From IMG/VR virus record IMGVR_UViG_2667527597_000005, positions 3,117 to 67,116 of that record: a stretch of 64,000 nt of DNA, one strand, 5' to 3'. Position 1 is the stretch's first letter, and the number at the start of each line of letters is the position of its first letter. This DNA comes from a virus (lineage: Duplodnaviria > Caudoviricetes). The notes below the pieces were generated by a model. The model ran no database searches, was not told the DNA's origin, and was given only the letters and a program-made list of their open reading frames with translations. Positions 5,746 to 62,513 of the stretch are shown in pieces. The translations under genes and the position numbers were made by a program.

Positions 5746-6195
5746 TTATTGATATTTGTAATAATCCCAATCAGCAAGTTCGCTTTTGGCTTCGACGTCA
5801 CCCAGTAATGATCTAAGAATTTTTATCTCAACGGTTCTCGATGATGCTTCACAATTAATCGGGGTATCGTGAACTTTCGATTTGAATCCATCGATAGAGT
5901 ACTTGCTAGACAGCCCTAAAATAAATGCCTTTTCATCTTTACCTACAGAGGTTCCTTTTTCATAAAATGTGATAGTGTTTTTTATTTTATCATCCAGATT
6001 ATGAAGTTCTAAAGCCATCGCCTCATCCCTATCTTCTCCATTAAGAACTCTTTTTAAGTAAGAGTTGCCGTAGTTGCAACCAAGCCCCCAAATACCGGCG
6101 GCGCTTCTCGCTGCCACTATATCAACAGGCTCTGCTAATAAGGGAAAAGACATAAACATAATTATTAGTAAAATATGCTTCACACGAATCTCCAA
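5746..6195 (-). CDS. AT-rich hypothetical exported protein (moron in tail operon)
   Basis: Signal-peptide-like N-terminus, two Cys; absent from the paralogous tailocin position. Confidence 0.65.
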   Translation of the reverse strand: MEIRVKHILLIIMFMSFPLLAEPVDIVAARSAAGIWGLGCNYGNSYLKRVLNGEDRDEAMALELHNLDDKIKNTITFYEKGTSVGKDEKAFILGLSSKYSIDGFKSKVHDTPINCEASSRTVEIKILRSLLGDVEAKSELADWDYYKYQ

Positions 6196-6258
6196 TCAGT
6201 AATTAACTAAGCTATTGAGAGTATATTTAGAACACGTCAGGCATTCAATTAAGTTGAG

Positions 6259-8046
6259 TTAACTTGGATAATTCATCGATGTTGATATTTTTGCCCCCTT
6301 TGGCGCAGTTATTTTCTGACGCTCCCCTGTTTTATCAGTGATCAACGTAATTTCAATTTCTGACTTATCGCCACCCATATCTTGGGTGATATCATTAATG
6401 TCTCTCCCACTTTGCTGGGATGAGTTAATGGATATTGGCGGTGATGCGTTGATATCAGAGGTGCCAGTATTTAACTCGCCAGATTGGGGATGAATGGCAG
6501 GTAAGCCCGGCATAATCTTCTGGAGATAGTTACGCGTTTCAGCAGGTGCTTGCCCTAGCCCATATTTTTTAACGTTATTCTGTCCCCAGTTATAAGAAGC
6601 AACGGCCTTATTGACATCCCCATCAAACATTTTAAGCAAGTCAGAAAGATACTTAGCTGCTGCTTCGCTGGATTTATTGAAGTCCATTCGGTCATCCATC
6701 GAGTTTAAGCCATAATCTCTACCGGTTGGCGGCATAAACTGAAATGGCCCCTGTGCGCCTTTTGGCGATAAGAGATTTTTACCCCGACCGGACTCCGCCT
6801 GATAGACACGATCAAGAATTGTGGTGGGAAGATTATACTGCGATTCTAATTGTTTTAGTCTCGCCTGCTGCTGATCTTCACCAAAAGGCATATAAGGCGT
6901 ATTGACTGGGGCTGCCAGATTTTGTTTTTCTTGCTCATCTCTAGGGCCATAATGTTGCTCATACTTTTTACGGTAACCATCAGTCATTATTCCGTAATCT
7001 GAGCCAACCTTATCCCATTCACTCAGTTTTTGATAAAATTCGGGGTCGTTATAACCACGGCGTAACTGATCCGCTTCTTTTCCCCTGTTTAGCCCTAAAA
7101 AGTGCGCAACTGAAATACTGTCAATACCGTTAGTGACGATATCAGTGACACCTTCTATTCCGTCTTTAACTGAACCATCTGACAAAATAGCACCGTAGAG
7201 CTTATTCTGACCACGCTGCTTTAACCCATCCCAGGCAGCACTCACCTCAGATAATTGGCGATCCAACTCGGTGAGTTGTGCGTTGGTTTGAGGGTCAACC
7301 GTTAAACCGAATTTATCCGCCTTTGCCAACAGATCTTTATATCTGGAGCCTTCGCGCATTAACGTAAGCAGGTTTTCATCCAAGCCTAATGCATCCGCCA
7401 ATGTTTTCTGAGTTTGTGGGGCAAGCTTAGGGAATATTTTGGCAACGTTGTCCAGCGTCTTATAGACATCAGCTGTGCCGTCTTTGAGACGTTCAATAAC
7501 CACCCCGTTCCGGGTCAGTAACTCCTGAACCACATCGTTACGTGCCCATAACGGATCATTAAATGTCTTGTATAGCCCTTCAACAGACTGGCGGGCAGAG
7601 TCGCTATCGGCCCCTAAAATCTGCATTGCGCCGCTGATCCGGCTAAAATTATCAACAGACATGCCAGCATTTTTTGCCGCCGTATCCAGTTGATAGGCGT
7701 TACCCGCAGCCTCGCCCAAGCCTTTAGCTAGCCCGTGGATAACATATCCACCCGCCGCCGCCATACCGCCAAACTTTAGTGCCTTACCGCCTAATTCCCC
7801 GACCATCTTCAGCGGCGGTACCAGATCACCGATAAACTGGACGCCTTCACGAGCAAACTGCCCCATTCCTTGCAGTTTATCGTTGATACTATCCAGACCT
7901 TCGACTGACTCTTGCCCACCAAGTTTTAAACCATCACGGGTTTTATCCAACTGGGGAACCAGTTTCTTTACCGCCTCGTCAATACGGTGAATAGTCGCCG
8001 TTACCTGATCGTTGGCCACCAGTTCAAAATCAAAAGCATTAGCCAT
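6259..8046 (-). CDS. Tape measure protein with lytic transglycosylase (SLT) domain
   Basis: AESG..SPKGAQGPFQFMP..ASYNWG motifs; follows tail chaperone. Confidence 0.88.
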   Translation of the reverse strand: MANAFDFELVANDQVTATIHRIDEAVKKLVPQLDKTRDGLKLGGQESVEGLDSINDKLQGMGQFAREGVQFIGDLVPPLKMVGELGGKALKFGGMAAAGGYVIHGLAKGLGEAAGNAYQLDTAAKNAGMSVDNFSRISGAMQILGADSDSARQSVEGLYKTFNDPLWARNDVVQELLTRNGVVIERLKDGTADVYKTLDNVAKIFPKLAPQTQKTLADALGLDENLLTLMREGSRYKDLLAKADKFGLTVDPQTNAQLTELDRQLSEVSAAWDGLKQRGQNKLYGAILSDGSVKDGIEGVTDIVTNGIDSISVAHFLGLNRGKEADQLRRGYNDPEFYQKLSEWDKVGSDYGIMTDGYRKKYEQHYGPRDEQEKQNLAAPVNTPYMPFGEDQQQARLKQLESQYNLPTTILDRVYQAESGRGKNLLSPKGAQGPFQFMPPTGRDYGLNSMDDRMDFNKSSEAAAKYLSDLLKMFDGDVNKAVASYNWGQNNVKKYGLGQAPAETRNYLQKIMPGLPAIHPQSGELNTGTSDINASPPISINSSQQSGRDINDITQDMGGDKSEIEITLITDKTGERQKITAPKGAKISTSMNYPS

Positions 8047-22358: not shown

Positions 22359-22590
22359 TGCGTAGTTTCCTTTCTTTCTCTAGCTGGCGGGCCGTGGCTG
22401 TACGGTTGGCGGCGTCATTCACCTGGTATGCATCGATGATGTTGCCAAGGGCGGTGTTTGTGGATTGCTCTTCTCTCAGTGCTTCTTCCGCTTTTTCGAC
22501 TTCATTTGAGAGGCTATTTCTATTGAGAAGCAGCAACAGAAAAAGAACCACCAGCAAAGCGATAATCCCACCGGTTATTTTGTTAGGCAT
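22255..22590 (-). CDS. i-spanin (Rz-like)
   Basis: N-terminal TM then coiled coil, after endolysin. Confidence 0.8.
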   Translation of the reverse strand: MPNKITGGIIALLVVLFLLLLLNRNSLSNEVEKAEEALREEQSTNTALGNIIDAYQVNDAANRTATARQLEKERKLRNDSDERLKRFLAASSDDNCAIQRMSDASINILRE

Positions 22591-23081
22591 AGCGCTCGTT
22601 CCTTATCCCGGCGAACCACCAGCCCCGCTAATTTTTTACCATCGCCGTATACCCAGCGCGGGAACTGTTCACAGGCTGCCGTCACGTTGCCAGCACGGAA
22701 ATACTGGAACATGGTGGATTTCTGCATCGATGGGCAACCAGCGTTAAAGGTGATTGACGTAGCAGCATCAAAAGCACCTGGCGGTAATTTATTGCCGTTC
22801 GCATAGCGAATAACGCAGCGCTCAGCATCAATGATGTTTTTTTCCCAATCAGCCGCTATCTGTGCATCAGTCTTTCGGGTGCCAGGTATGACGCTGTGAG
22901 TGTTCCCCACACCATCTGTGATAATACCTGCGGGGCAAACATACGGATCACGGCGGCATGATTCGGCATTACCGATCAGCTCTAATCCCCGCTCACTGGT
23001 TCTGACGTTGCCATTGGATACAACGAGAGCAATTATTGCTGCCACAGAACACAAGCCACCGGCCTTACTTAGCTTGTTCAT
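22575..23081 (-). CDS. SAR endolysin (GH24 lysozyme, P1 Lyz type)
   Basis: SAR helix with Cys11; E40-x-C42..C49..T55; GLVVRR. Confidence 0.92.
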   Translation of the reverse strand: MNKLSKAGGLCSVAAIIALVVSNGNVRTSERGLELIGNAESCRRDPYVCPAGIITDGVGNTHSVIPGTRKTDAQIAADWEKNIIDAERCVIRYANGNKLPPGAFDAATSITFNAGCPSMQKSTMFQYFRAGNVTAACEQFPRWVYGDGKKLAGLVVRRDKERALCLTK

Positions 23082-23382
23082 ATAGTTCCTCGTTACGCTT
23101 TATCGCTTCTGCAACAATCTCCACGGCCGCTGAGCGATCCGCTATCGGTCGGGTAGTCGCATTGTTGAGGAACTCCCGCAGTATTTCTGTACGCTTCTGC
23201 TCTTCAATTAACCGCGCTTTCTCTTCACGCCGTTTGGCGTAATACGTTTTGATTGTGAAGAATGCCGAAACCACCGCACCCAGAATGAAGATGTAATCCT
23301 GCAGGGATAGTAATGAGAAAACGCCAAGCGCTAATGACCACCAATAAGGCAGGTTTTGAGAGGTAACTGGTTCCATTCGCAT
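23065..23382 (-). CDS. Holin
   Basis: Hydrophobic N-terminus, charged tail, upstream of lysozyme; Met-Arg-Met start. Confidence 0.8.
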   Translation of the reverse strand: MRMEPVTSQNLPYWWSLALGVFSLLSLQDYIFILGAVVSAFFTIKTYYAKRREEKARLIEEQKRTEILREFLNNATTRPIADRSAAVEIVAEAIKRNEELYEQAK

Positions 23383-23603: not shown

Positions 23604-23864
23604 TTGATGGTTCTTCGTACAATAAAAGGAAGTTACATGAGCAATACTACCGCATCAATTGACCCTTCAACGATTACGGCATTAATGATGGCCCTTCCTA
23701 TATTAGCGTCCAGTCTAGATGATAAAACGCAAGCAAAAATAAGGGCCGAAGTAGAAGAGCGTGAATTTCAAATCTTAACAGCTATGGGCGAGCACCCTGC
23801 GGCTGAAATGATGAAACAAAATCTTAAATTAGTACGTACTCTGCTGGCGGTTCACGGCAAGTAG
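23604..23864 (+). CDS. Hypothetical protein, opposite strand to late operon
   Basis: AAGGA RBS before ATG 23637. Confidence 0.55.
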   Translation: MMVLRTIKGSYMSNTTASIDPSTITALMMALPILASSLDDKTQAKIRAEVEEREFQILTAMGEHPAAEMMKQNLKLVRTLLAVHGK

Positions 23865-23874
23865 TGAGTGATAG

Positions 23875-24159
23875 TTAATTAATCTGAGAGTGTTTTAGAG
23901 CAAAATGCTCAATTGCGCTCTCAGCAATAATTTTCTCGGCTGGTGTGGGTAGCTGAGCCTTGAACGATATAACTTGGTTTACTAAATTCAGGAAATCCCT
24001 ACAAGAAACTAATTCATTACCATCCGCATCTTTAAATCCATAGCGGTGAAATAGCTCAAGTACTTCATATTTAGTGGCATGCGTAAAATCCGTTGAATTT
24101 TCTACAAATCCGCTTTTCTTTAACATGTAATCACCATTGTAATTGATAAAAAGGCCCAC
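23875..24159 (-). CDS. Hypothetical protein
   Basis: ORF, AT-rich. Confidence 0.5.
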   Translation of the reverse strand: MGLFINYNGDYMLKKSGFVENSTDFTHATKYEVLELFHRYGFKDADGNELVSCRDFLNLVNQVISFKAQLPTPAEKIIAESAIEHFALKHSQIN

Positions 24160-24243
24160 CGAAGTGAGCCTTAAAACACGTACGTTAACGTTTTTATGCC
24201 GTTAACTGTAATTTGAAGCCGGTTGCGGTTCCGGCGTCAACAC

Positions 24244-24525
24244 CTACCAATGTGCTGACCGCATACCTTTCAACTTCTGATCTTCGAATTGCCCGCTTAG
24301 AGCGATGCTATCAGGCAGTAACGCCCAAGCAACATAGAAATCATGTGGGGTCAGTTCACTCATGAGCCAAGTATAAATGCCGATGTAGCCATCGGAGTCA
24401 CGCACATACCCAATATGGTAACCATCGCAGGGATTGAGCAGTAAAACTGTTTTACCGTCCATGTCAGGCGCTGGCTTCTCGTCCGCAGGATGGAATACCA
24501 AGCTATCAGTAACCAGTTTCGCCAT
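24244..24525 (-). CDS. Hypothetical phage protein
   Basis: GAGG RBS; first ORF after tR'-like terminator. Confidence 0.55.
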   Translation of the reverse strand: MAKLVTDSLVFHPADEKPAPDMDGKTVLLLNPCDGYHIGYVRDSDGYIGIYTWLMSELTPHDFYVAWALLPDSIALSGQFEDQKLKGMRSAHW

Positions 24526-24545: not shown

Positions 24546-24640
24546 AAAACCCCGCCGAAGCGAAGTCTTTTTAATTGTGTAAGCTGCGTAACAAAGTAAC
24601 TATCCTTATCACACTACAGGCATTTTTGCGTACGCGTTAG
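24546..24640 (-). promoter_or_regulatory. Prophage late promoter pR'/Q-binding element and tR'-like hairpin
   Basis: TAACGCGTACGCAAAAA resembles the elements after tailocin Q; hairpin with U-run at 24546-24571. Confidence 0.6.
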
Positions 24641-24710
24641 GGAATATTGAAGTATTATCATTAAAAAAATTTCAGTTATAACGTAGGGTTTAAATGACAA
24701 GGAACTTCCT

Positions 24711-25739
24711 ATGACTGCTCAGGTTAACATTACCACCCATCACTTTATTGTTCATATTATGAACAAGATACAGCATGACAATGCAATCTTGGTCCCCAAT
24801 CCGAACGAAAAGCCCGTCCAAGCCGCATCAGATAAACTGACTGACGACCTAACGGAAAGGTATACCGGACGCGCAGGTAAAGGGTATGGAAAATTTGAGG
24901 ATGACAGAGATAGCTACCCTATGGGAAATATAGTTGATGACTATTTCATCACTAGAAGAACAAACTTTTACGACACCAGCATTCGAATGATAAATCACTT
25001 GAAAGCGAGAGCAGATGATGAACACCTATCTACAGGTGGTTATGTCATAATTGCGCATACTGAAGTTAATGGAAACCATTATTTAATGGTTGCTATCCTT
25101 ACTTCTGCTATGGGGTCTTCAGTTCAAGATTTTGATATCCAGTCAAGTGAGTATCTTGATATTGCAAAACTGCGAGTTGCCGGACGTATAGATCTCACTG
25201 GATGGCAAGGAGGCAAAGAGCGTTATATCAGTTTCCTCAAAGGCCAAAACACCATTGCAGGTTATTTCAAGAAGTTTTTAGGCTGTAATGATATTTTAGC
25301 CGCCAAGCAGGAAACAACAAAGCTAAGAGATGCTCTTCTTCAATTTGCTACTGAGAGAAACTTAGAACCTGAGGCACGAGAGGAGTTTCTGAATCGTGCG
25401 CATGATAAACTGAAACAACTGAATAAAAATGGCGATGAATTTGAAACTCAAACATTTGCTAATGAGTTATGGCCTGGCGAACCTGAATTATTAATTGAAA
25501 AGTTAACAAATGAAGATTTGCAGTTCTCTGATGGTTTTGTTCCAGATAGTGGTGTCATTCGCAGCCTGGTTAGTTTTAAAGGAAAATCAAAGCATTGGTC
25601 TTTAAAGTTTGAACGTGCAGCCCTACATGAGGGAAGCGTGATTTATGACCACGCGACTAATAAATTGATACTCACTGAAATTCCAGATACCCTAAAAGAT
25701 GAAATCTTGGCTGAACTAGGTGAAGAGGATGACGGCTAA
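24711..25739 (+). CDS. Nucleoid-associated protein NdpA/YejK (37-kDa NAP)-like
   Basis: GKGYGKF, TGGYV, AGRIDL, YISFLKG, YFKKFLGC, FVPD motifs recognised from this family. Confidence 0.8.
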   Translation: MTAQVNITTHHFIVHIMNKIQHDNAILVPNPNEKPVQAASDKLTDDLTERYTGRAGKGYGKFEDDRDSYPMGNIVDDYFITRRTNFYDTSIRMINHLKARADDEHLSTGGYVIIAHTEVNGNHYLMVAILTSAMGSSVQDFDIQSSEYLDIAKLRVAGRIDLTGWQGGKERYISFLKGQNTIAGYFKKFLGCNDILAAKQETTKLRDALLQFATERNLEPEAREEFLNRAHDKLKQLNKNGDEFETQTFANELWPGEPELLIEKLTNEDLQFSDGFVPDSGVIRSLVSFKGKSKHWSLKFERAALHEGSVIYDHATNKLILTEIPDTLKDEILAELGEEDDG

Positions 25740-26880
25740 TAATAGAAAATTTGATGATTTGGTGAATATATATATAAACACCACATTCACAACTAATTAT
25801 TCGGTGGGAGCTATTCATATTTCCACCGATGACCTTCGCCAGTGCATTCAAGATATTATTGATAATAGCGATGACTTTGGTATTACTTTAGAATCAGGAG
25901 CCATTGCGACTGGTGAAGACATAATCATACGTATTACCCATCCTAAAATGAGGATTGGGCAGTTACATAATACCTTTGATGATTACTTAAAAAATAGTAA
26001 AAATCGCATTAAGGAAGCAAGCTCTTATTATATCATTAATGATAAATTTTATAATAGAGATACTCCCCCCCCTTTGCATGTGCAAAAATATAGGGCAATA
26101 TTGCGGCTTATCGCACTATTCAGAGAATCATCAGCCTATTTAGATGAATCTAACTGTGAATTGGTTTTCGTCGATTCTAATGTTATTAAGATACCAGTTA
26201 ATTATACTACTGATGATTTAACACATTTGCAGTTAGATAAAGTTAAAAATTTTATTGCCTACTTTGCCGAAGATACTCATCGAGATCAAAAACTAACTAT
26301 TTTAGCTAATAGCATTAAATCTATGAGTGAAACAAAAACCAAAGATTCCTCATTCATATACCTTATTCAAGATTTTTCACAATTATGTGAAAGTTTCAAT
26401 AAAGGATATAAAATTTTTGTATCTGGTTTTTCATATGACAAAATTCTAGATCAGCTTAGAGTTGCTAAAATTGAAGAAATGGGGAAAATACATAAGGTTT
26501 TCAGTGATATTCAAAATCAGATCTTAGGTATACCTGTTGCGACAATTATAGTCGCCACACAAATGAAACAAGCGAATGGTTGGGACGCTCAAGCATTGAT
26601 TAATACCGCGATTGTCCTTGGTGCGCTATTCTTTACCGCAATGATACTATTCGTCATGTTTAATCAGTGGCAAACTCTTAATGCTATCTCTGATGAGTTG
26701 AATTATAAAAAAAATCAAGCAGAGACTAACTACAAATCAATCTATGATGATATTGAGTCAACATTCAAAAGTTTGACAACTCGCATTTATACCCAAAGAG
26801 TGGTCTTTATAGTATTGGGTATCTTTGTAATGGTTGGATTGTTGTTAACATTTAAGGTTTATTATTTCCTTACCCTTTAA
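25729..26880 (+). CDS. Hypothetical protein with C-terminal transmembrane helices
   Basis: Overlaps upstream stop; three hydrophobic segments in last ~120 aa. Confidence 0.8.
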   Translation: MTANNRKFDDLVNIYINTTFTTNYSVGAIHISTDDLRQCIQDIIDNSDDFGITLESGAIATGEDIIIRITHPKMRIGQLHNTFDDYLKNSKNRIKEASSYYIINDKFYNRDTPPPLHVQKYRAILRLIALFRESSAYLDESNCELVFVDSNVIKIPVNYTTDDLTHLQLDKVKNFIAYFAEDTHRDQKLTILANSIKSMSETKTKDSSFIYLIQDFSQLCESFNKGYKIFVSGFSYDKILDQLRVAKIEEMGKIHKVFSDIQNQILGIPVATIIVATQMKQANGWDAQALINTAIVLGALFFTAMILFVMFNQWQTLNAISDELNYKKNQAETNYKSIYDDIESTFKSLTTRIYTQRVVFIVLGIFVMVGLLLTFKVYYFLTL

Positions 26881-26959
26881 GCCTAATAGTATTATTTTTT
26901 TAGTGGTCGCATCGAGATGCCCGCAACCTAAACACTCCCGATGCGACTCAATAAAGAGA

Positions 26960-27325
26960 TTAGGTATCCATACCCATTTTCACATCCAACATTGATAGAC
27001 ACCCACCAATAAACCCCTCAGCTAACTGCATTTCTTTTCTGATAGTTCCATCCGAACACCTACGTTTACGTGCAATCGACCTGAGTGATACGTTGTACAG
27101 GTAGTGCAAAACCAGCAGCTCATACTCATCTGGCTTGAATTTATTAAGTCTTGCAACACAGCTATCAATGATAATTCCATCATCGTCACAGCATGAAAGC
27201 CTACTCGGTGACTTTGATGGCAATAAGCCTTTAAAACCAGCAGCAATATGAGAGTAATCTACCCCGCTGTTATCACTGGCAGCCCAGCCTCCCCAACGCT
27301 CTAATACTATAGAGATATCTCTCAT
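26960..27325 (-). CDS. Q: Late antiterminator Q
   Basis: MRDI..VLERWGGW..CCDDDG..AEGFI signature. Confidence 0.9.
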   Translation of the reverse strand: MRDISIVLERWGGWAASDNSGVDYSHIAAGFKGLLPSKSPSRLSCCDDDGIIIDSCVARLNKFKPDEYELLVLHYLYNVSLRSIARKRRCSDGTIRKEMQLAEGFIGGCLSMLDVKMGMDT

Positions 27326-61767: not shown

Positions 61768-61811
61768 TTATAACCTCCCTCTCTGATACACTGGCGTGTA
61801 AAACCAACAGA

Positions 61812-61847
61812 AACAGGAAAGCCCCGACAATGCGGGGCTTTCCTGTT
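61812..61847. terminator. Strong hairpin terminator (tR'-like) before holin
   Basis: AACAGGAAAGCCCCG..CGGGGCTTTCCTGTT. Confidence 0.8.
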
Positions 61848-61866
61848 ATTCAATCAGTGTGTTACT

Positions 61867-62075
61867 AACCAGTGATATCAGACTAATACACTTTTTGCGG
61901 ACCGCGTTAATGTTTTTTTCACTATTTTTAAATTTATTTTTCTGCTTCATGAATAAAAATATGAAAATAAAAAAAATCCCGCAATAGCGAGACTTTAAAT
62001 TATTATTCCTGCGGAACTCATAAACCAGTGCTATCAGACTAATACACTTTTCGCGGACCGCACTAATGTTTTTTC
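61867..62075 (-). promoter_or_regulatory. Tandem ~53-bp late promoter/Q-binding elements
   Basis: Direct repeats 61867-61920 and 62023-62075. Confidence 0.7.
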
Positions 62076-62513
62076 ATAAAAATGGATATTTTCAATAAAC
62101 GGATCCATTTCTAATTTTACATTCAACATTGCCAGGCAACCATCAATAAAACCTTCAGCCATTTGTATATTAATTCTGATCAGCCTTTCATCTCTTTTTT
62201 GCTGACGTGCAATAGCACGCTTTGATTGATTCAGTACATAATGGCGAATAATTAATTCATATTCATCTGGGCGATATTGTTTTAAGCGGGCAACACACCC
62301 ATCGACCACTAAACCATCATCATCGCAACATGAAGCTTTGTTTTTAGAAGTATCAGCCAGGAGTCCTTTAAACCCCGCAGCAATAGATGAATAATCCAGC
62401 CCAGAACTGTATCTTGCCCATACTCCCCAGCGCGCCAACACCAATTGAATATCTCTCATGCTCTGGCTTTTCTGGCTATGGCTGCCAGCTGCGTTGCCGT
62501 TTATTGAACTCAT
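62034..62513 (-). CDS. Q: Antiterminator Q of tailocin
   Basis: MRDIQLVLARWGVW..CCDDDG..AEGFIDG. Confidence 0.9.
   Translation of the reverse strand: MSSINGNAAGSHSQKSQSMRDIQLVLARWGVWARYSSGLDYSSIAAGFKGLLADTSKNKASCCDDDGLVVDGCVARLKQYRPDEYELIIRHYVLNQSKRAIARQQKRDERLIRINIQMAEGFIDGCLAMLNVKLEMDPFIENIHFYEKTLVRSAKSVLV

What the first reader, a model, noticed from the sequence alone, without database searches (positions are those of the whole stretch)
24711..26880. Candidate undescribed anti-phage system: NdpA/YejK-like protein coupled to a membrane protein, inserted between Q and pR'
Seen: an AT-rich, translationally coupled two-gene operon on the strand opposite the phage late genes. It separates Q (ends 26960) from its putative late promoter (~24620) by 2.3 kb, whereas in the paralogous tailocin that element overlaps the end of Q, so this looks like an acquired cassette. 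Gene 1 has NdpA/YejK-family motifs; gene 2 has a ~260-aa soluble domain plus three C-terminal hydrophobic helices. Known: the Q-lysis interval is a lambdoid cargo hotspot, and DNA-binding + membrane protein pairs (e.g. Kiwa) occur in defence. Inference: a DNA-sensing/membrane-effector defence or abortive-infection module. I do not recognise it as a named system.
Basis: partly seen in the sequence, partly recalled or inferred. Interest (0 to 1): 0.85.

Follow-up and report, generated by a model that had tools for sequence, protein, structure and literature searches.

The report
Prophage nucleoid-protein plus membrane-protein defence pair
A prophage carries two overlapping genes, a YejK-like DNA-binding protein and a membrane-anchored partner, that are distant relatives of an anti-phage system first described in 2025-2026, so the pair is real and probably defensive but no longer an undescribed kind.

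Summary
Two coupled, AT-rich genes on the + strand (24711-25739; 25729-26880) lie between the phage antiterminator Q and a late-promoter-like element. Gene 1 is a full-length NA37/YejK-family protein but not housekeeping YejK. Gene 2 has a confidently folded 218-aa N-terminal domain and a C-terminal membrane hairpin.

The functional guess is supported. The claim that the system is unnamed is not. NCBIfam models for the validated E. coli system DS-1 (DefensePredictor, Science 2026) match both proteins, far below their cut-offs. Profile-profile comparison with true DS-1 pairs gives 99.5% and 98.9% probability over nearly full length, at 15-16% identity. The layout matches "type II PANGU" (bioRxiv 2026): a nucleoid-protein sensor plus a membrane effector causing abortive infection.

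The pair is strongly conserved: 57 of 61 loci have the NA37 gene directly upstream, and 25 of 26 loci with a Q homologue have the partner gene convergent with Q. It forms its own clade, apart from housekeeping YejK and DS-1A.

No member of this clade is known to have been tested. PANGU-Ecu sequences are in a supplement I could not open. This scan has reported the same cassette before (59 findings in at least 51 genomes).

Verdict: a new, untested member of a known kind, of low to moderate interest.

The parts
24711..25739 (+). Gene 1: NA37/YejK-family nucleoid-associated protein (342 aa), the presumed sensor (PagA/DS-1A-like)
   Evidence: Pfam PF04245 at 239 bits over the full profile. PHROG 3767, E 6e-84. 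YejK equivalog NF001557 scores 184.8 bits against a cut-off of 341, and DS1_1 NF053868 scores 54.4 bits against 330. hhalign against true DS-1A proteins gives probability 99.5%.
25729..26880 (+). Gene 2: partner protein (383 aa from ATG 25729; 386 aa if the GTG at 25720 is used), with a soluble N-terminal domain and a C-terminal membrane hairpin. It is the presumed effector (PagB/DS-1B-like).
   Evidence: DS1_2 NF053869 scores 72.6 bits, E 3e-20, over residues 67-357. PHROG 5023, E 1.6e-84. hhalign against true DS-1B proteins gives probability 98.9% over 354 columns. Models. Hydrophobicity.
24655..24710 (+). Candidate own promoter (TTATCA-16-TATAAC, 24655-24682) and ribosome-binding site (AAGGAAC, 24699-24705) of the cassette
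   Evidence: Read directly from the sequence. The consensus scan did not list it. This part is inference only.
24546..24639 (-). Late-promoter-like element followed by a terminator-like hairpin (pR'/tR'-like), on the phage late strand, on the far side of the cassette from Q
   Evidence: Terminator-like site at 24569..24546. RNA fold of the leader. The same element lies after the second Q of the window at 61909. It lies upstream of gene 1 in 6 of 25 loci that have a Q homologue, which are 4 distinct sequences.
26881..26959 (.). 79-nt convergent spacer between the gene 2 stop and the Q stop, holding a strong hairpin
   Evidence: RNA fold gives -20.6 kcal/mol on the + strand and -24.9 kcal/mol on the - strand. 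There is no T-run after the stem on either strand, so it is not a canonical intrinsic terminator.
26960..27325 (-). Antiterminator Q (context: one border of the slot)
   Evidence: Pfam PF06530, 177 bits.

Best explanation
The two genes form a prophage-borne, two-component anti-phage system of the DS-1 / type II PANGU kind.

Gene 1 is a YejK-like nucleoid-associated protein. In an uninfected lysogen it would sit on the chromosome.

Gene 2 is a membrane-anchored protein. Its cytoplasmic N-terminal domain would be the docking site for gene 1, and its C-terminal helical hairpin would sit in the inner membrane.

When a superinfecting phage degrades or remodels the host DNA, the nucleoid protein would be released and bind the N-terminal domain of the partner. 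It would switch on a membrane-damaging or otherwise growth-arresting activity, so that the infected cell stops supporting phage growth (abortive infection).

Shown here: homology of both proteins to validated DS-1; the architecture; the tight coupling; the conservation of the pair; its carriage by phages in a cargo slot.

Taken from papers on other members: the anti-phage effect, the need for both genes, the relocation of the nucleoid protein, and its binding to the partner's soluble domain.

Inferred: that this divergent clade does the same, and that the membrane part is the killing or arresting part.
For: 1. Family assignment. NA37 at 239 bits over the full profile. Both DS-1 models match: NF053868 at E 9.8e-15 and NF053869 at E 3e-20.

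2. Comparison with true DS-1 pairs. These were found in 3 of 401 Enterobacterales genomes above cut-off, plus one at 312 bits. Profile-profile comparison gives 99.5% (E 8e-23, 312 columns) for the A proteins and 98.9% (E 1.3e-17, 354 columns) for the B proteins, with the same gene order.

3. Pair conservation. An NA37 homologue lies directly upstream of the gene 2 homologue in 57 of 61 loci. Three loci lack it and one is cut by a contig end. Gaps between the two ORFs run from -59 to +5 nt wherever both are whole, apart from one frameshifted copy.

4. Mobility. 38 IMG/VR viral contigs and 7 deposited phage records carry gene 2 relatives. 37 of 5426 complete E. coli genomes carry a 71% identical pair in the same DUF968-Q-[pair]-holin slot.

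5. It is not the housekeeping gene. It scores below the YejK equivalog cut-off. Five of five genomes searched hold a separate YejK (357-377 bits) beside the cassette copy. In a quick tree it falls in a clade separate from both YejK and DS-1A.

6. Structure. The model shows a soluble N-terminal domain (pLDDT 93, pTM 0.86) plus a hydrophobic helical hairpin. This is the layout described for Pag2B (passages read).

7. Published function of relatives. DefensePredictor validated a YejK-domain system (passages, section 5). In the PANGU preprint, type II gave a 3-4 log reduction against T4 or Bas34, both genes were needed, Pag2A bound the N-terminal domain of Pag2B with KD 19 nM, and Pag2A left the nucleoid on T4 infection.
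Against: - Both proteins score far below the curated DS-1 cut-offs: 54.4 against 330 bits and 72.6 against 315 bits. Identity to true DS-1 is only 15-16% in the profile alignment. Function cannot be transferred with confidence at that distance.

- No member of this clade is known to me to have been tested. RefSeq still names the E. coli orthologue of gene 2 'hypothetical protein'.

- The N-terminal part of the window's gene 2 is only weakly acidic (net charge -3). The family median is -7 and true DS-1B has a median of -9.5. The 'DNA-mimic' surface claimed for Pag2B is therefore not evident from sequence here.

- PADLOC (2023) matched neither protein.

- I have no evidence that the genes are expressed in the lysogen.

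- The mechanism rests on a preprint that studied mainly type I. The authors state that how Pag2A activates Pag2B is undetermined.
Confidence: 0.7

Rival explanations
1. A phage-encoded nucleoid protein with a membrane tether that serves the prophage itself. It might organise or silence phage or host DNA, as mobile-element NdpA-like proteins are proposed to do. Or it might hold DNA at the membrane to exclude incoming DNA (superinfection exclusion without cell death).
For: NA37 proteins are DNA binders. NdpA-like proteins on mobile elements are discussed as 'foreign' nucleoid proteins (search listing of PMC6606824 only; the pCAR1 Pnd example is recalled, not read). The pair is always phage-borne or in prophage-like settings. 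The N-terminal domain of gene 2 in this window is not markedly acidic.
Against: Both proteins are homologous to a pair validated as anti-phage. In type II PANGU the phenotype reported was growth arrest of infected cultures, not simple exclusion. The position in the Q-lysis cargo slot, the opposite strand and the AT-rich composition are typical of lysogen-expressed cargo rather than of core phage functions.
Confidence: 0.15
2. An accessory lysis-timing or late-gene regulatory module: a membrane protein next to the holin, and a DNA-binding protein next to the late promoter, acting on the prophage's own lytic cycle.
For: The cassette abuts the late-promoter-like element and lies 1.3 kb from the holin. 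In other loci the pair sits directly before a holin and a transglycosylase on the same strand (L006) or before an endolysin (L052, L053, L057).
Against: In the window and in 25 of 26 loci with a Q homologue it is transcribed against the late operon. The pair also occurs away from lysis genes, for example in Sinorhizobium phage phi2LM21 next to a methyltransferase and ligase genes and next to an integrase for true DS-1. Homology points to defence.
Confidence: 0.05
3. A decaying or neutral passenger with no current function.
For: One IMG/VR copy has a frameshifted gene 2 (L057). Truncated E. coli and Salmonella versions of 257-267 aa exist (P0035, P0036).
Against: Both frames are intact here. 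The family has 1122 cluster representatives at 50% identity, with many invariant residues across 21 diverse members. The pairing and overlap are kept over large distances.
Confidence: 0.03

Closest known systems
DS-1 (DefensePredictor; NCBIfam NF053868 DS1_1_antiphage 'nucleoid-associated anti-phage protein' and NF053869 DS1_2_antiphage 'anti-phage protein'; Science 2026, PMC13092281)
   Same: It has two genes in the same order, coupled or overlapping. The first protein has an NA37/YejK domain. The second has about 400 aa with a soluble N-terminal part and a hydrophobic C-terminal part. Both are homologous over nearly full length (hhalign 99.5% and 98.9%). The best-conserved stretch of the B proteins (FSYEKI..AK.EE..KIHK.FSDIQNQILGIPVATIIVATQ) aligns with the corresponding DS-1B stretch.
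   Different: Identity is only 15-16%. Scores are about a fifth of the curated cut-offs. In a quick tree the window's A protein is in a clade separate from DS-1A. True DS-1A proteins are longer (372-402 aa). Their consensus begins with a Cys-x2-Cys...Cys-x2-Cys stretch that the window's gene 1 lacks. That DS-1 is the YejK-domain system of the paper rests on the NCBIfam names plus the paper's sentence on a YejK domain. The table of systems is in supplements I could not open.
Type II PANGU (Pag2A + Pag2B; Li et al., bioRxiv 10.64898/2026.04.06.716658, April 2026)
   Same: It is a bicistronic operon of a YejK-like nucleoid protein and a protein with an N-terminal soluble domain and a C-terminal transmembrane domain. 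This is what the window shows.
   Different: Sequence relation to the tested PANGU-Ecu pair is unknown, because the sequences are in a closed supplement. Pag2B's N-terminal domain is described as strongly acidic, whereas the window's has net charge -3. PANGU clusters were defined by linkage to known defence genes, whereas this pair sits in a prophage cargo slot.
Housekeeping YejK/NdpA (NCBIfam NF001557)
   Same: Same Pfam family, with a full-length match.
   Different: It is 24-26% identical to the YejK of five Enterobacterales genomes and scores 184.8 bits against a cut-off of 341. It is an extra, phage-borne copy always paired with the membrane partner.
Kiwa (KwaA membrane protein + KwaB DNA-binding protein)
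   Same: The general logic of a DNA-binding component with a membrane component.
   Different: No PADLOC model, Kiwa's included as far as that library holds them, matched either protein at E up to 1. The gene order and domain families differ.

Membership tests
DS-1 (NCBIfam equivalogs NF053868 / NF053869) | A protein reaches the curated cut-off of DS1_1_antiphage (330 bits) | tested here: not met
   54.4 bits, E 9.8e-15, residues 54-245
DS-1 (NCBIfam equivalogs NF053868 / NF053869) | B protein reaches the curated cut-off of DS1_2_antiphage (315 bits) | tested here: not met
   72.6 bits, E 3e-20, residues 67-357. True members in 3 of 401 genomes score 346-385 bits.
DS-1 superfamily (remote homologues of both DS-1 proteins) | Both proteins homologous to DS-1A and DS-1B over most of their length, in the same gene order | tested here: met
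   hhalign 99.5% (312 columns) and 98.9% (354 columns). Gene order and coupling.
DS-1 superfamily (remote homologues of both DS-1 proteins) | Protects against phage when expressed | not testable with these tools
   Needs an efficiency-of-plating assay.
Type II PANGU | YejK-like (NA37) nucleoid-associated protein gene | tested here: met
   PF04245, 239 bits, profile positions 1-325 of 325
Type II PANGU | Two-gene operon with the partner less than 40 bp away | tested here: met
   11-nt overlap with the ATG start, 20-nt overlap with the GTG start
Type II PANGU | Partner with an N-terminal soluble domain and a C-terminal transmembrane domain | tested here: met
   Models with pLDDT 82 and 93; two hydrophobic segments
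Type II PANGU | Acidic, DNA-mimicking surface on the partner's soluble domain | tested here: inconclusive
   By sequence only: net charge -3 in the window, family median -7, true DS-1B median -9.5. No electrostatic surface was computed.
Type II PANGU | Sequence similarity to the tested Pag2A/Pag2B (PANGU-Ecu) | not testable with these tools
Type II PANGU | The nucleoid protein binds the partner's soluble domain | not testable with these tools
Housekeeping YejK | Reaches the equivalog cut-off of NF001557 (341 bits) and groups with chromosomal YejK | tested here: not met
   184.8 bits. It falls in a clade separate from the five YejK rows; SH-aLRT support is 99 for the YejK clade in a quick tree.
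Kiwa and other systems in PADLOC-DB 2.0.0 | Match to any model of the library | tested here: not met
   No family at E up to 1 for either protein

The most novel reading that the evidence does not exclude
The slot itself may be part of the design. In this clade the pair is always wedged, convergently, between the stop codon of Q and Q's own late-promoter-like element. The gap to Q is only -4 to 42 nt in 25 of 26 loci with a Q homologue, and 79 nt in the window.

On prophage induction, early transcription reading through Q would then run antisense across the whole cassette. This could silence the defence exactly when the prophage starts its own lytic growth, as a built-in self-immunity switch.

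In addition, the partner's N-terminal domain has no solved counterpart and shows only weak, recurrent LAGLIDADG-like hints. It may therefore bind DNA or the nucleoid protein in a way not yet described for PANGU.
Probability: 0.15. Interest if true: 0.55.

Novelty: new member of a known kind. Interest (0 to 1): 0.28.

Why it matters
If active, this clade would widen the DS-1 / type II PANGU class to a large phage-borne branch: 1122 cluster representatives at 50% identity, found in Enterobacterales, Pseudomonas and betaproteobacteria. Public annotation still calls the gene 2 protein 'hypothetical'.

It would also give a natural set of very divergent sensor-effector pairs sitting in one conserved prophage slot. 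That set is useful for asking how the nucleoid-protein sensor and the membrane effector co-evolve, and what the membrane effector does. The PANGU authors leave the effector question open.

For this window alone, the finding is an annotation gain rather than a discovery.

Tried and rejected
Fold of gene 2. Foldseek of the full model against the PDB gave nothing at E <= 0.001. The best hit was E 0.083 (YukC/EssB pseudokinase), followed by many kinases with TM-scores of 0.08-0.16. VIA-align over 48,161 chains matched only the C-terminal helical hairpin (283-386), with Z 9-11, to generic helical hairpins, which is below the tool's own threshold for helical proteins. The N-terminal domain alone gave a best Foldseek E of 0.11, again kinases with rmsd about 17 A. 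I reject the kinase reading. VIA-align on that domain gave a best Z of 5.2 (WhiA LAGLIDADG domain, 71 residues, rmsd 3.5), with only 1 chain at Z >= 5. The ESM Atlas gave only unnamed clusters at high score. I record a weak LAGLIDADG-like hint but do not claim it.

Expression. No RNA holder was listed. I laid three RNA runs of the same species label. All laid reads (51, 102 and 62) fit only partly and fall in 5 of 30 bins, none within the cassette, so that strain evidently lacks this prophage. This says nothing about expression.

Near-identical DNA in deposited phages: no match by megablast.

Host genome. The window's own record is a 67,116-base provirus record, so the host's YejK and its defence islands could not be examined.

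Papers. Searches for other papers on this kind found only the two cited. The library does not cover subscription journals, so Brenes and Laub 2025 on E. coli prophage defence systems, seen only in a reference list, was not read.

Tree. The careful tree search did not finish, and only the quick tree is reported. Rows dropped before the tree were A proteins shorter than 300 aa and exact duplicates. The root is at the midpoint only.

Motif search. The regular expression for the late-promoter-like element is strict and missed 19 of 25 loci, which have other Q types. That is no evidence that those loci lack a late promoter there.
Full report
WHAT IS THERE. The window is part of a 67,116-base provirus record. 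On the + strand, against the phage late genes, lie two reading frames: 24711..25739 (342 aa) and 25720..26880 (386 aa from GTG). The more likely start of the second is ATG 25729, which follows AGGTGA. The database copy of the protein has 383 aa (P0001), and relatives begin at the same place. The genes then overlap by 11 nt. GC falls to 0.30-0.41 in the cassette from about 0.50 on either side.

To the right, convergent and 79 nt away, is antiterminator Q (26960..27325, Pfam PF06530, 177 bits), followed by a DUF968 gene. To the left, on the minus strand, come two small genes of unknown function, then the holin (23065..23382) and the endolysin (22575..23081).

THE TWO PROTEINS. Gene 1 matches Pfam NA37 over the whole profile (239 bits) and PHROG 3767. 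It is not housekeeping YejK. It scores 184.8 bits where the YejK equivalog needs 341. It is 24-26% identical to the chromosomal YejK of five Enterobacterales genomes. Each of those five genomes holds a YejK (357-377 bits against NA37) plus a second, cassette-borne NA37 gene.

Gene 2 has no Pfam family above cut-off but belongs to PHROG 5023, which is of unknown function (E 1.6e-84). AlphaFold2 with 21 sequences gives mean pLDDT 82. It shows an alpha/beta domain (residues 10-217) and long helices at 219-267, 270-281, 288-337 and 339-384. The N-terminal 218 residues modelled alone reach pLDDT 93 and pTM 0.86. Hydrophobicity gives two clear membrane segments within the last two helices. The conserved LGIPVATIIVATQ stretch before them is short.

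I read this as a cytoplasmic N-terminal domain, a juxtamembrane helix, and a two-helix membrane hairpin whose connecting part (about 314-358) is polar and conserved (N315, Q316, E326, R355, Q359). The topology is inferred.

IT IS A KNOWN KIND. PADLOC-DB of 2023 matches neither protein. NCBIfam release 20 does. Gene 1 hits DS1_1_antiphage ('nucleoid-associated anti-phage protein', 54.4 bits, E 9.8e-15). Gene 2 hits DS1_2_antiphage ('anti-phage protein', 72.6 bits, E 3e-20, residues 67-357 on profile positions 17-314 of 337). Both are far below the cut-offs of 330 and 315 bits.

Two papers describe the kind. DefensePredictor (Science 2026, PMC13092281; passages and section 5 read) cloned predicted units with native promoters in E. 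coli MG1655 and challenged them with 24 phages. It lists 'a YejK nucleoid-associated domain' among domains newly validated in defence.

A bioRxiv preprint of April 2026 (10.64898/2026.04.06.716658; abstract and sections 3, 11, 12, 13, 16 and 42 read, plus passages) defines PANGU systems. Type II is a YejK-like protein Pag2A plus a transmembrane protein Pag2B. For the E. coli example, the preprint reports the following:
- Both genes are needed.
- Cultures stop growing rather than lyse.
- The N-terminal domain of Pag2B binds Pag2A with KD 19 nM.
- Pag2A-GFP leaves the nucleoid on T4 infection.
- How Pag2B is activated is left open.

HOW CLOSE IS THE WINDOW'S PAIR? I searched 401 Enterobacterales genomes with NF053869. 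Twenty-three had a match at E <= 0.001. Three were above the cut-off (346-385 bits) and one scored 312 bits. In those four loci an NA37 gene of 372-402 aa lies directly upstream (Pfam NA37 at 73.8 bits for one of them).

BLASTP of the window's proteins against these gives only partial alignments at 19-30% identity. Profile-profile comparison is clear, however. The window's gene 2 clade (21 sequences) against the four true DS-1B proteins gives probability 98.9%, E 1.3e-17, 354 aligned columns and 16% identity. The gene 1 clade against the four DS-1A proteins gives 99.5%, E 8e-23, 312 columns and 15% identity.

Ten of ten further, more distant members of the gene 2 superfamily also hit NF053869 below its cut-off, at 74-124 bits. 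In a quick maximum-likelihood tree of 58 NA37 proteins, the five YejK rows form one clade (support 99) and the four DS-1A rows another (100). The window's protein lies in a third clade of 44 rows (94), all cassette-borne. The careful search did not finish and the root is arbitrary.

So the pair is a remote branch of the same two-gene system, not a DS-1 orthologue. I could not compare it with PANGU-Ecu, whose sequence is in a closed supplement. That system might belong to this very clade, because E. coli has an orthologue of it.

CONSERVATION AND SETTING. Gene 2 has 358 relatives in the word-indexed search, all named 'hypothetical' or 'phage-related membrane protein'. A profile search of 1.84 billion representatives found 1122 cluster representatives at E <= 0.001.

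I examined 61 loci: 2 of the 7 deposited phage records that matched, 21 species genomes and 38 IMG/VR contigs. An NA37 homologue stands immediately upstream of the gene 2 homologue in 57 of them. The exceptions are three Cupriavidus loci, where only the C-terminal half of gene 2 matches, and one locus cut at a contig end. Several loci are duplicates or near-copies of each other, so the number of independent cases is lower. The tree kept 52 distinct A proteins besides the window's gene 1 and the five YejK rows.

The two frames overlap, or are at most 5 nt apart, wherever both are whole. One frameshifted copy is the exception.

In 25 of the 26 loci that also have a Q homologue, gene 2 and Q are convergent, with -4 to 42 nt between the stop codons. 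These include Klebsiella phage P7641, whose pair is only 20-24% identical to the window's. In 37 of 5426 complete E. coli genomes, a 71% identical pair occupies the same DUF968-Q-[pair]-holin slot, and 16 of them cover at least 80% of the query. Other clade members sit before a holin and a transglycosylase on the same strand. In Sinorhizobium phage phi2LM21 the pair sits beside a methyltransferase and ligase genes.

THE LATE-PROMOTER CLAIM. On the minus strand at 24639 begins TAACGCGTACGCAAAAA..GTAGTGTGATAAGG, followed about 40 nt later by a hairpin and a T-run ending near 24546. A second Q gene lies at 62103-62459 (58% identical). It is followed by two tandem copies of the same element, each with its own terminator-like hairpin. 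The first copy overlaps the end of that Q's longer reading frame.

The element also lies upstream of gene 1, on the opposite strand, in the Rosenbergiella, Serratia and Yersinia loci and in one IMG/VR locus. That is 6 of 25 loci tested with a strict pattern, or 4 distinct sequences. The gap between gene 2 and Q is too small to hold a promoter and a terminator. That it is a promoter is inferred. The arrangement is shared across the clade, so it is old and not a recent insertion in this prophage.

MECHANISM. The best-supported reading is the published one, transferred by homology and architecture. The nucleoid protein sits on DNA and is freed when an infecting phage destroys or remodels the chromosome. 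It binds the cytoplasmic domain of the membrane partner, which then arrests or kills the cell.

Shown here are the homology, the architecture and the conservation. The phenotype and the binding come from the papers and concern other members.

Points that do not fit neatly:
- The window's N-terminal part has net charge -3 only, against a clade median of -7 and a true DS-1B median of -9.5.
- The domain has no solved counterpart.

Rivals are a phage-serving nucleoid protein with a membrane tether, a lysis or late-gene accessory, and a neutral passenger. I rate them at 0.15, 0.05 and 0.03.

WHAT I COULD NOT DO. No RNA run holds the prophage. The host genome is not held.

EARLIER NOTES OF THIS SCAN. 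After I had reached the reading above, I looked up earlier findings. The same cassette has been reported many times on other DNA (59 findings in at least 51 genomes), with the same verdict. My tests agree with them. One note pointed out the slot between Q and its late-promoter region, which I checked here. Another noted a zinc ribbon on DS-1A. The consensus of the four DS-1A proteins I collected shows a CxxC...CxxC start, which the window's gene 1 lacks.

VERDICT. This is a real, intact, conserved two-gene prophage cassette. It is most likely a divergent, untested member of the DS-1 / type II PANGU class.

Noticed in passing
L020, L021, L022 (Cupriavidus), about 6004-6630: A 208-aa ORF matches only the C-terminal half (residues 193-385, 41% identity) of gene 2 and has no NA37 gene upstream. 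The neighbours are an MFS transporter and ORFs without a Pfam family. It may be a stand-alone or re-partnered membrane module.
   Followed up: partly
window 26881-26959: The 79-nt spacer between the convergent gene 2 and Q holds a strong hairpin (-20.6 kcal/mol on the + strand, -24.9 kcal/mol on the - strand). The T-run lies before the stem, not after it, on both strands, so it is not a canonical bidirectional terminator.
   Followed up: partly
window 61800-62070 (minus strand): Downstream of the second Q paralogue, the late-promoter-like element occurs twice in tandem (a variant near 62066 and a copy at 61909). Each copy is followed by its own terminator-like hairpin.
   Followed up: partly
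window 25720-26373 (gene 2 residues 1-218): The confidently modelled N-terminal domain has no solved counterpart. Weak LAGLIDADG-type hits recur in three searches: I-DmoI and E-DreI in Foldseek, WhiA at Z 5.2 and I-Tsp061I at Z 3.9 in VIA-align, and WhiA and LAGLIDADG_3 clusters at TM 0.23-0.28 in the Atlas. All are below the noise thresholds.
   Followed up: partly
L057 (IMG/VR), 6001-7192: The gene 2 homologue is split into two frames (residues 11-226 and 228-385), a likely frameshifted pseudogene beside an intact NA37 gene.
   Followed up: no
L012 and L013 (Jeongeupia wiesaeckerbachi chromosome): One genome carries two identical copies of the pair 1.27 Mb apart, presumably in two related prophages.
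   Followed up: no
window 23604-24525: Three small ORFs lie between the late-promoter-like element and the holin: 24244-24525 (-, PHROG 17248, unknown function), 23875-24159 (-, weak PHROG 18255) and 23604-23864 (+, no family). None has a known function.
   Followed up: no
L002 (Klebsiella phage P7641), 2599-4960: The same Q-lysis slot holds a very divergent version of the pair, 20-24% identical to the window's. It scores a little closer to DS-1: 86.8 and 103.2 bits.
   Followed up: partly
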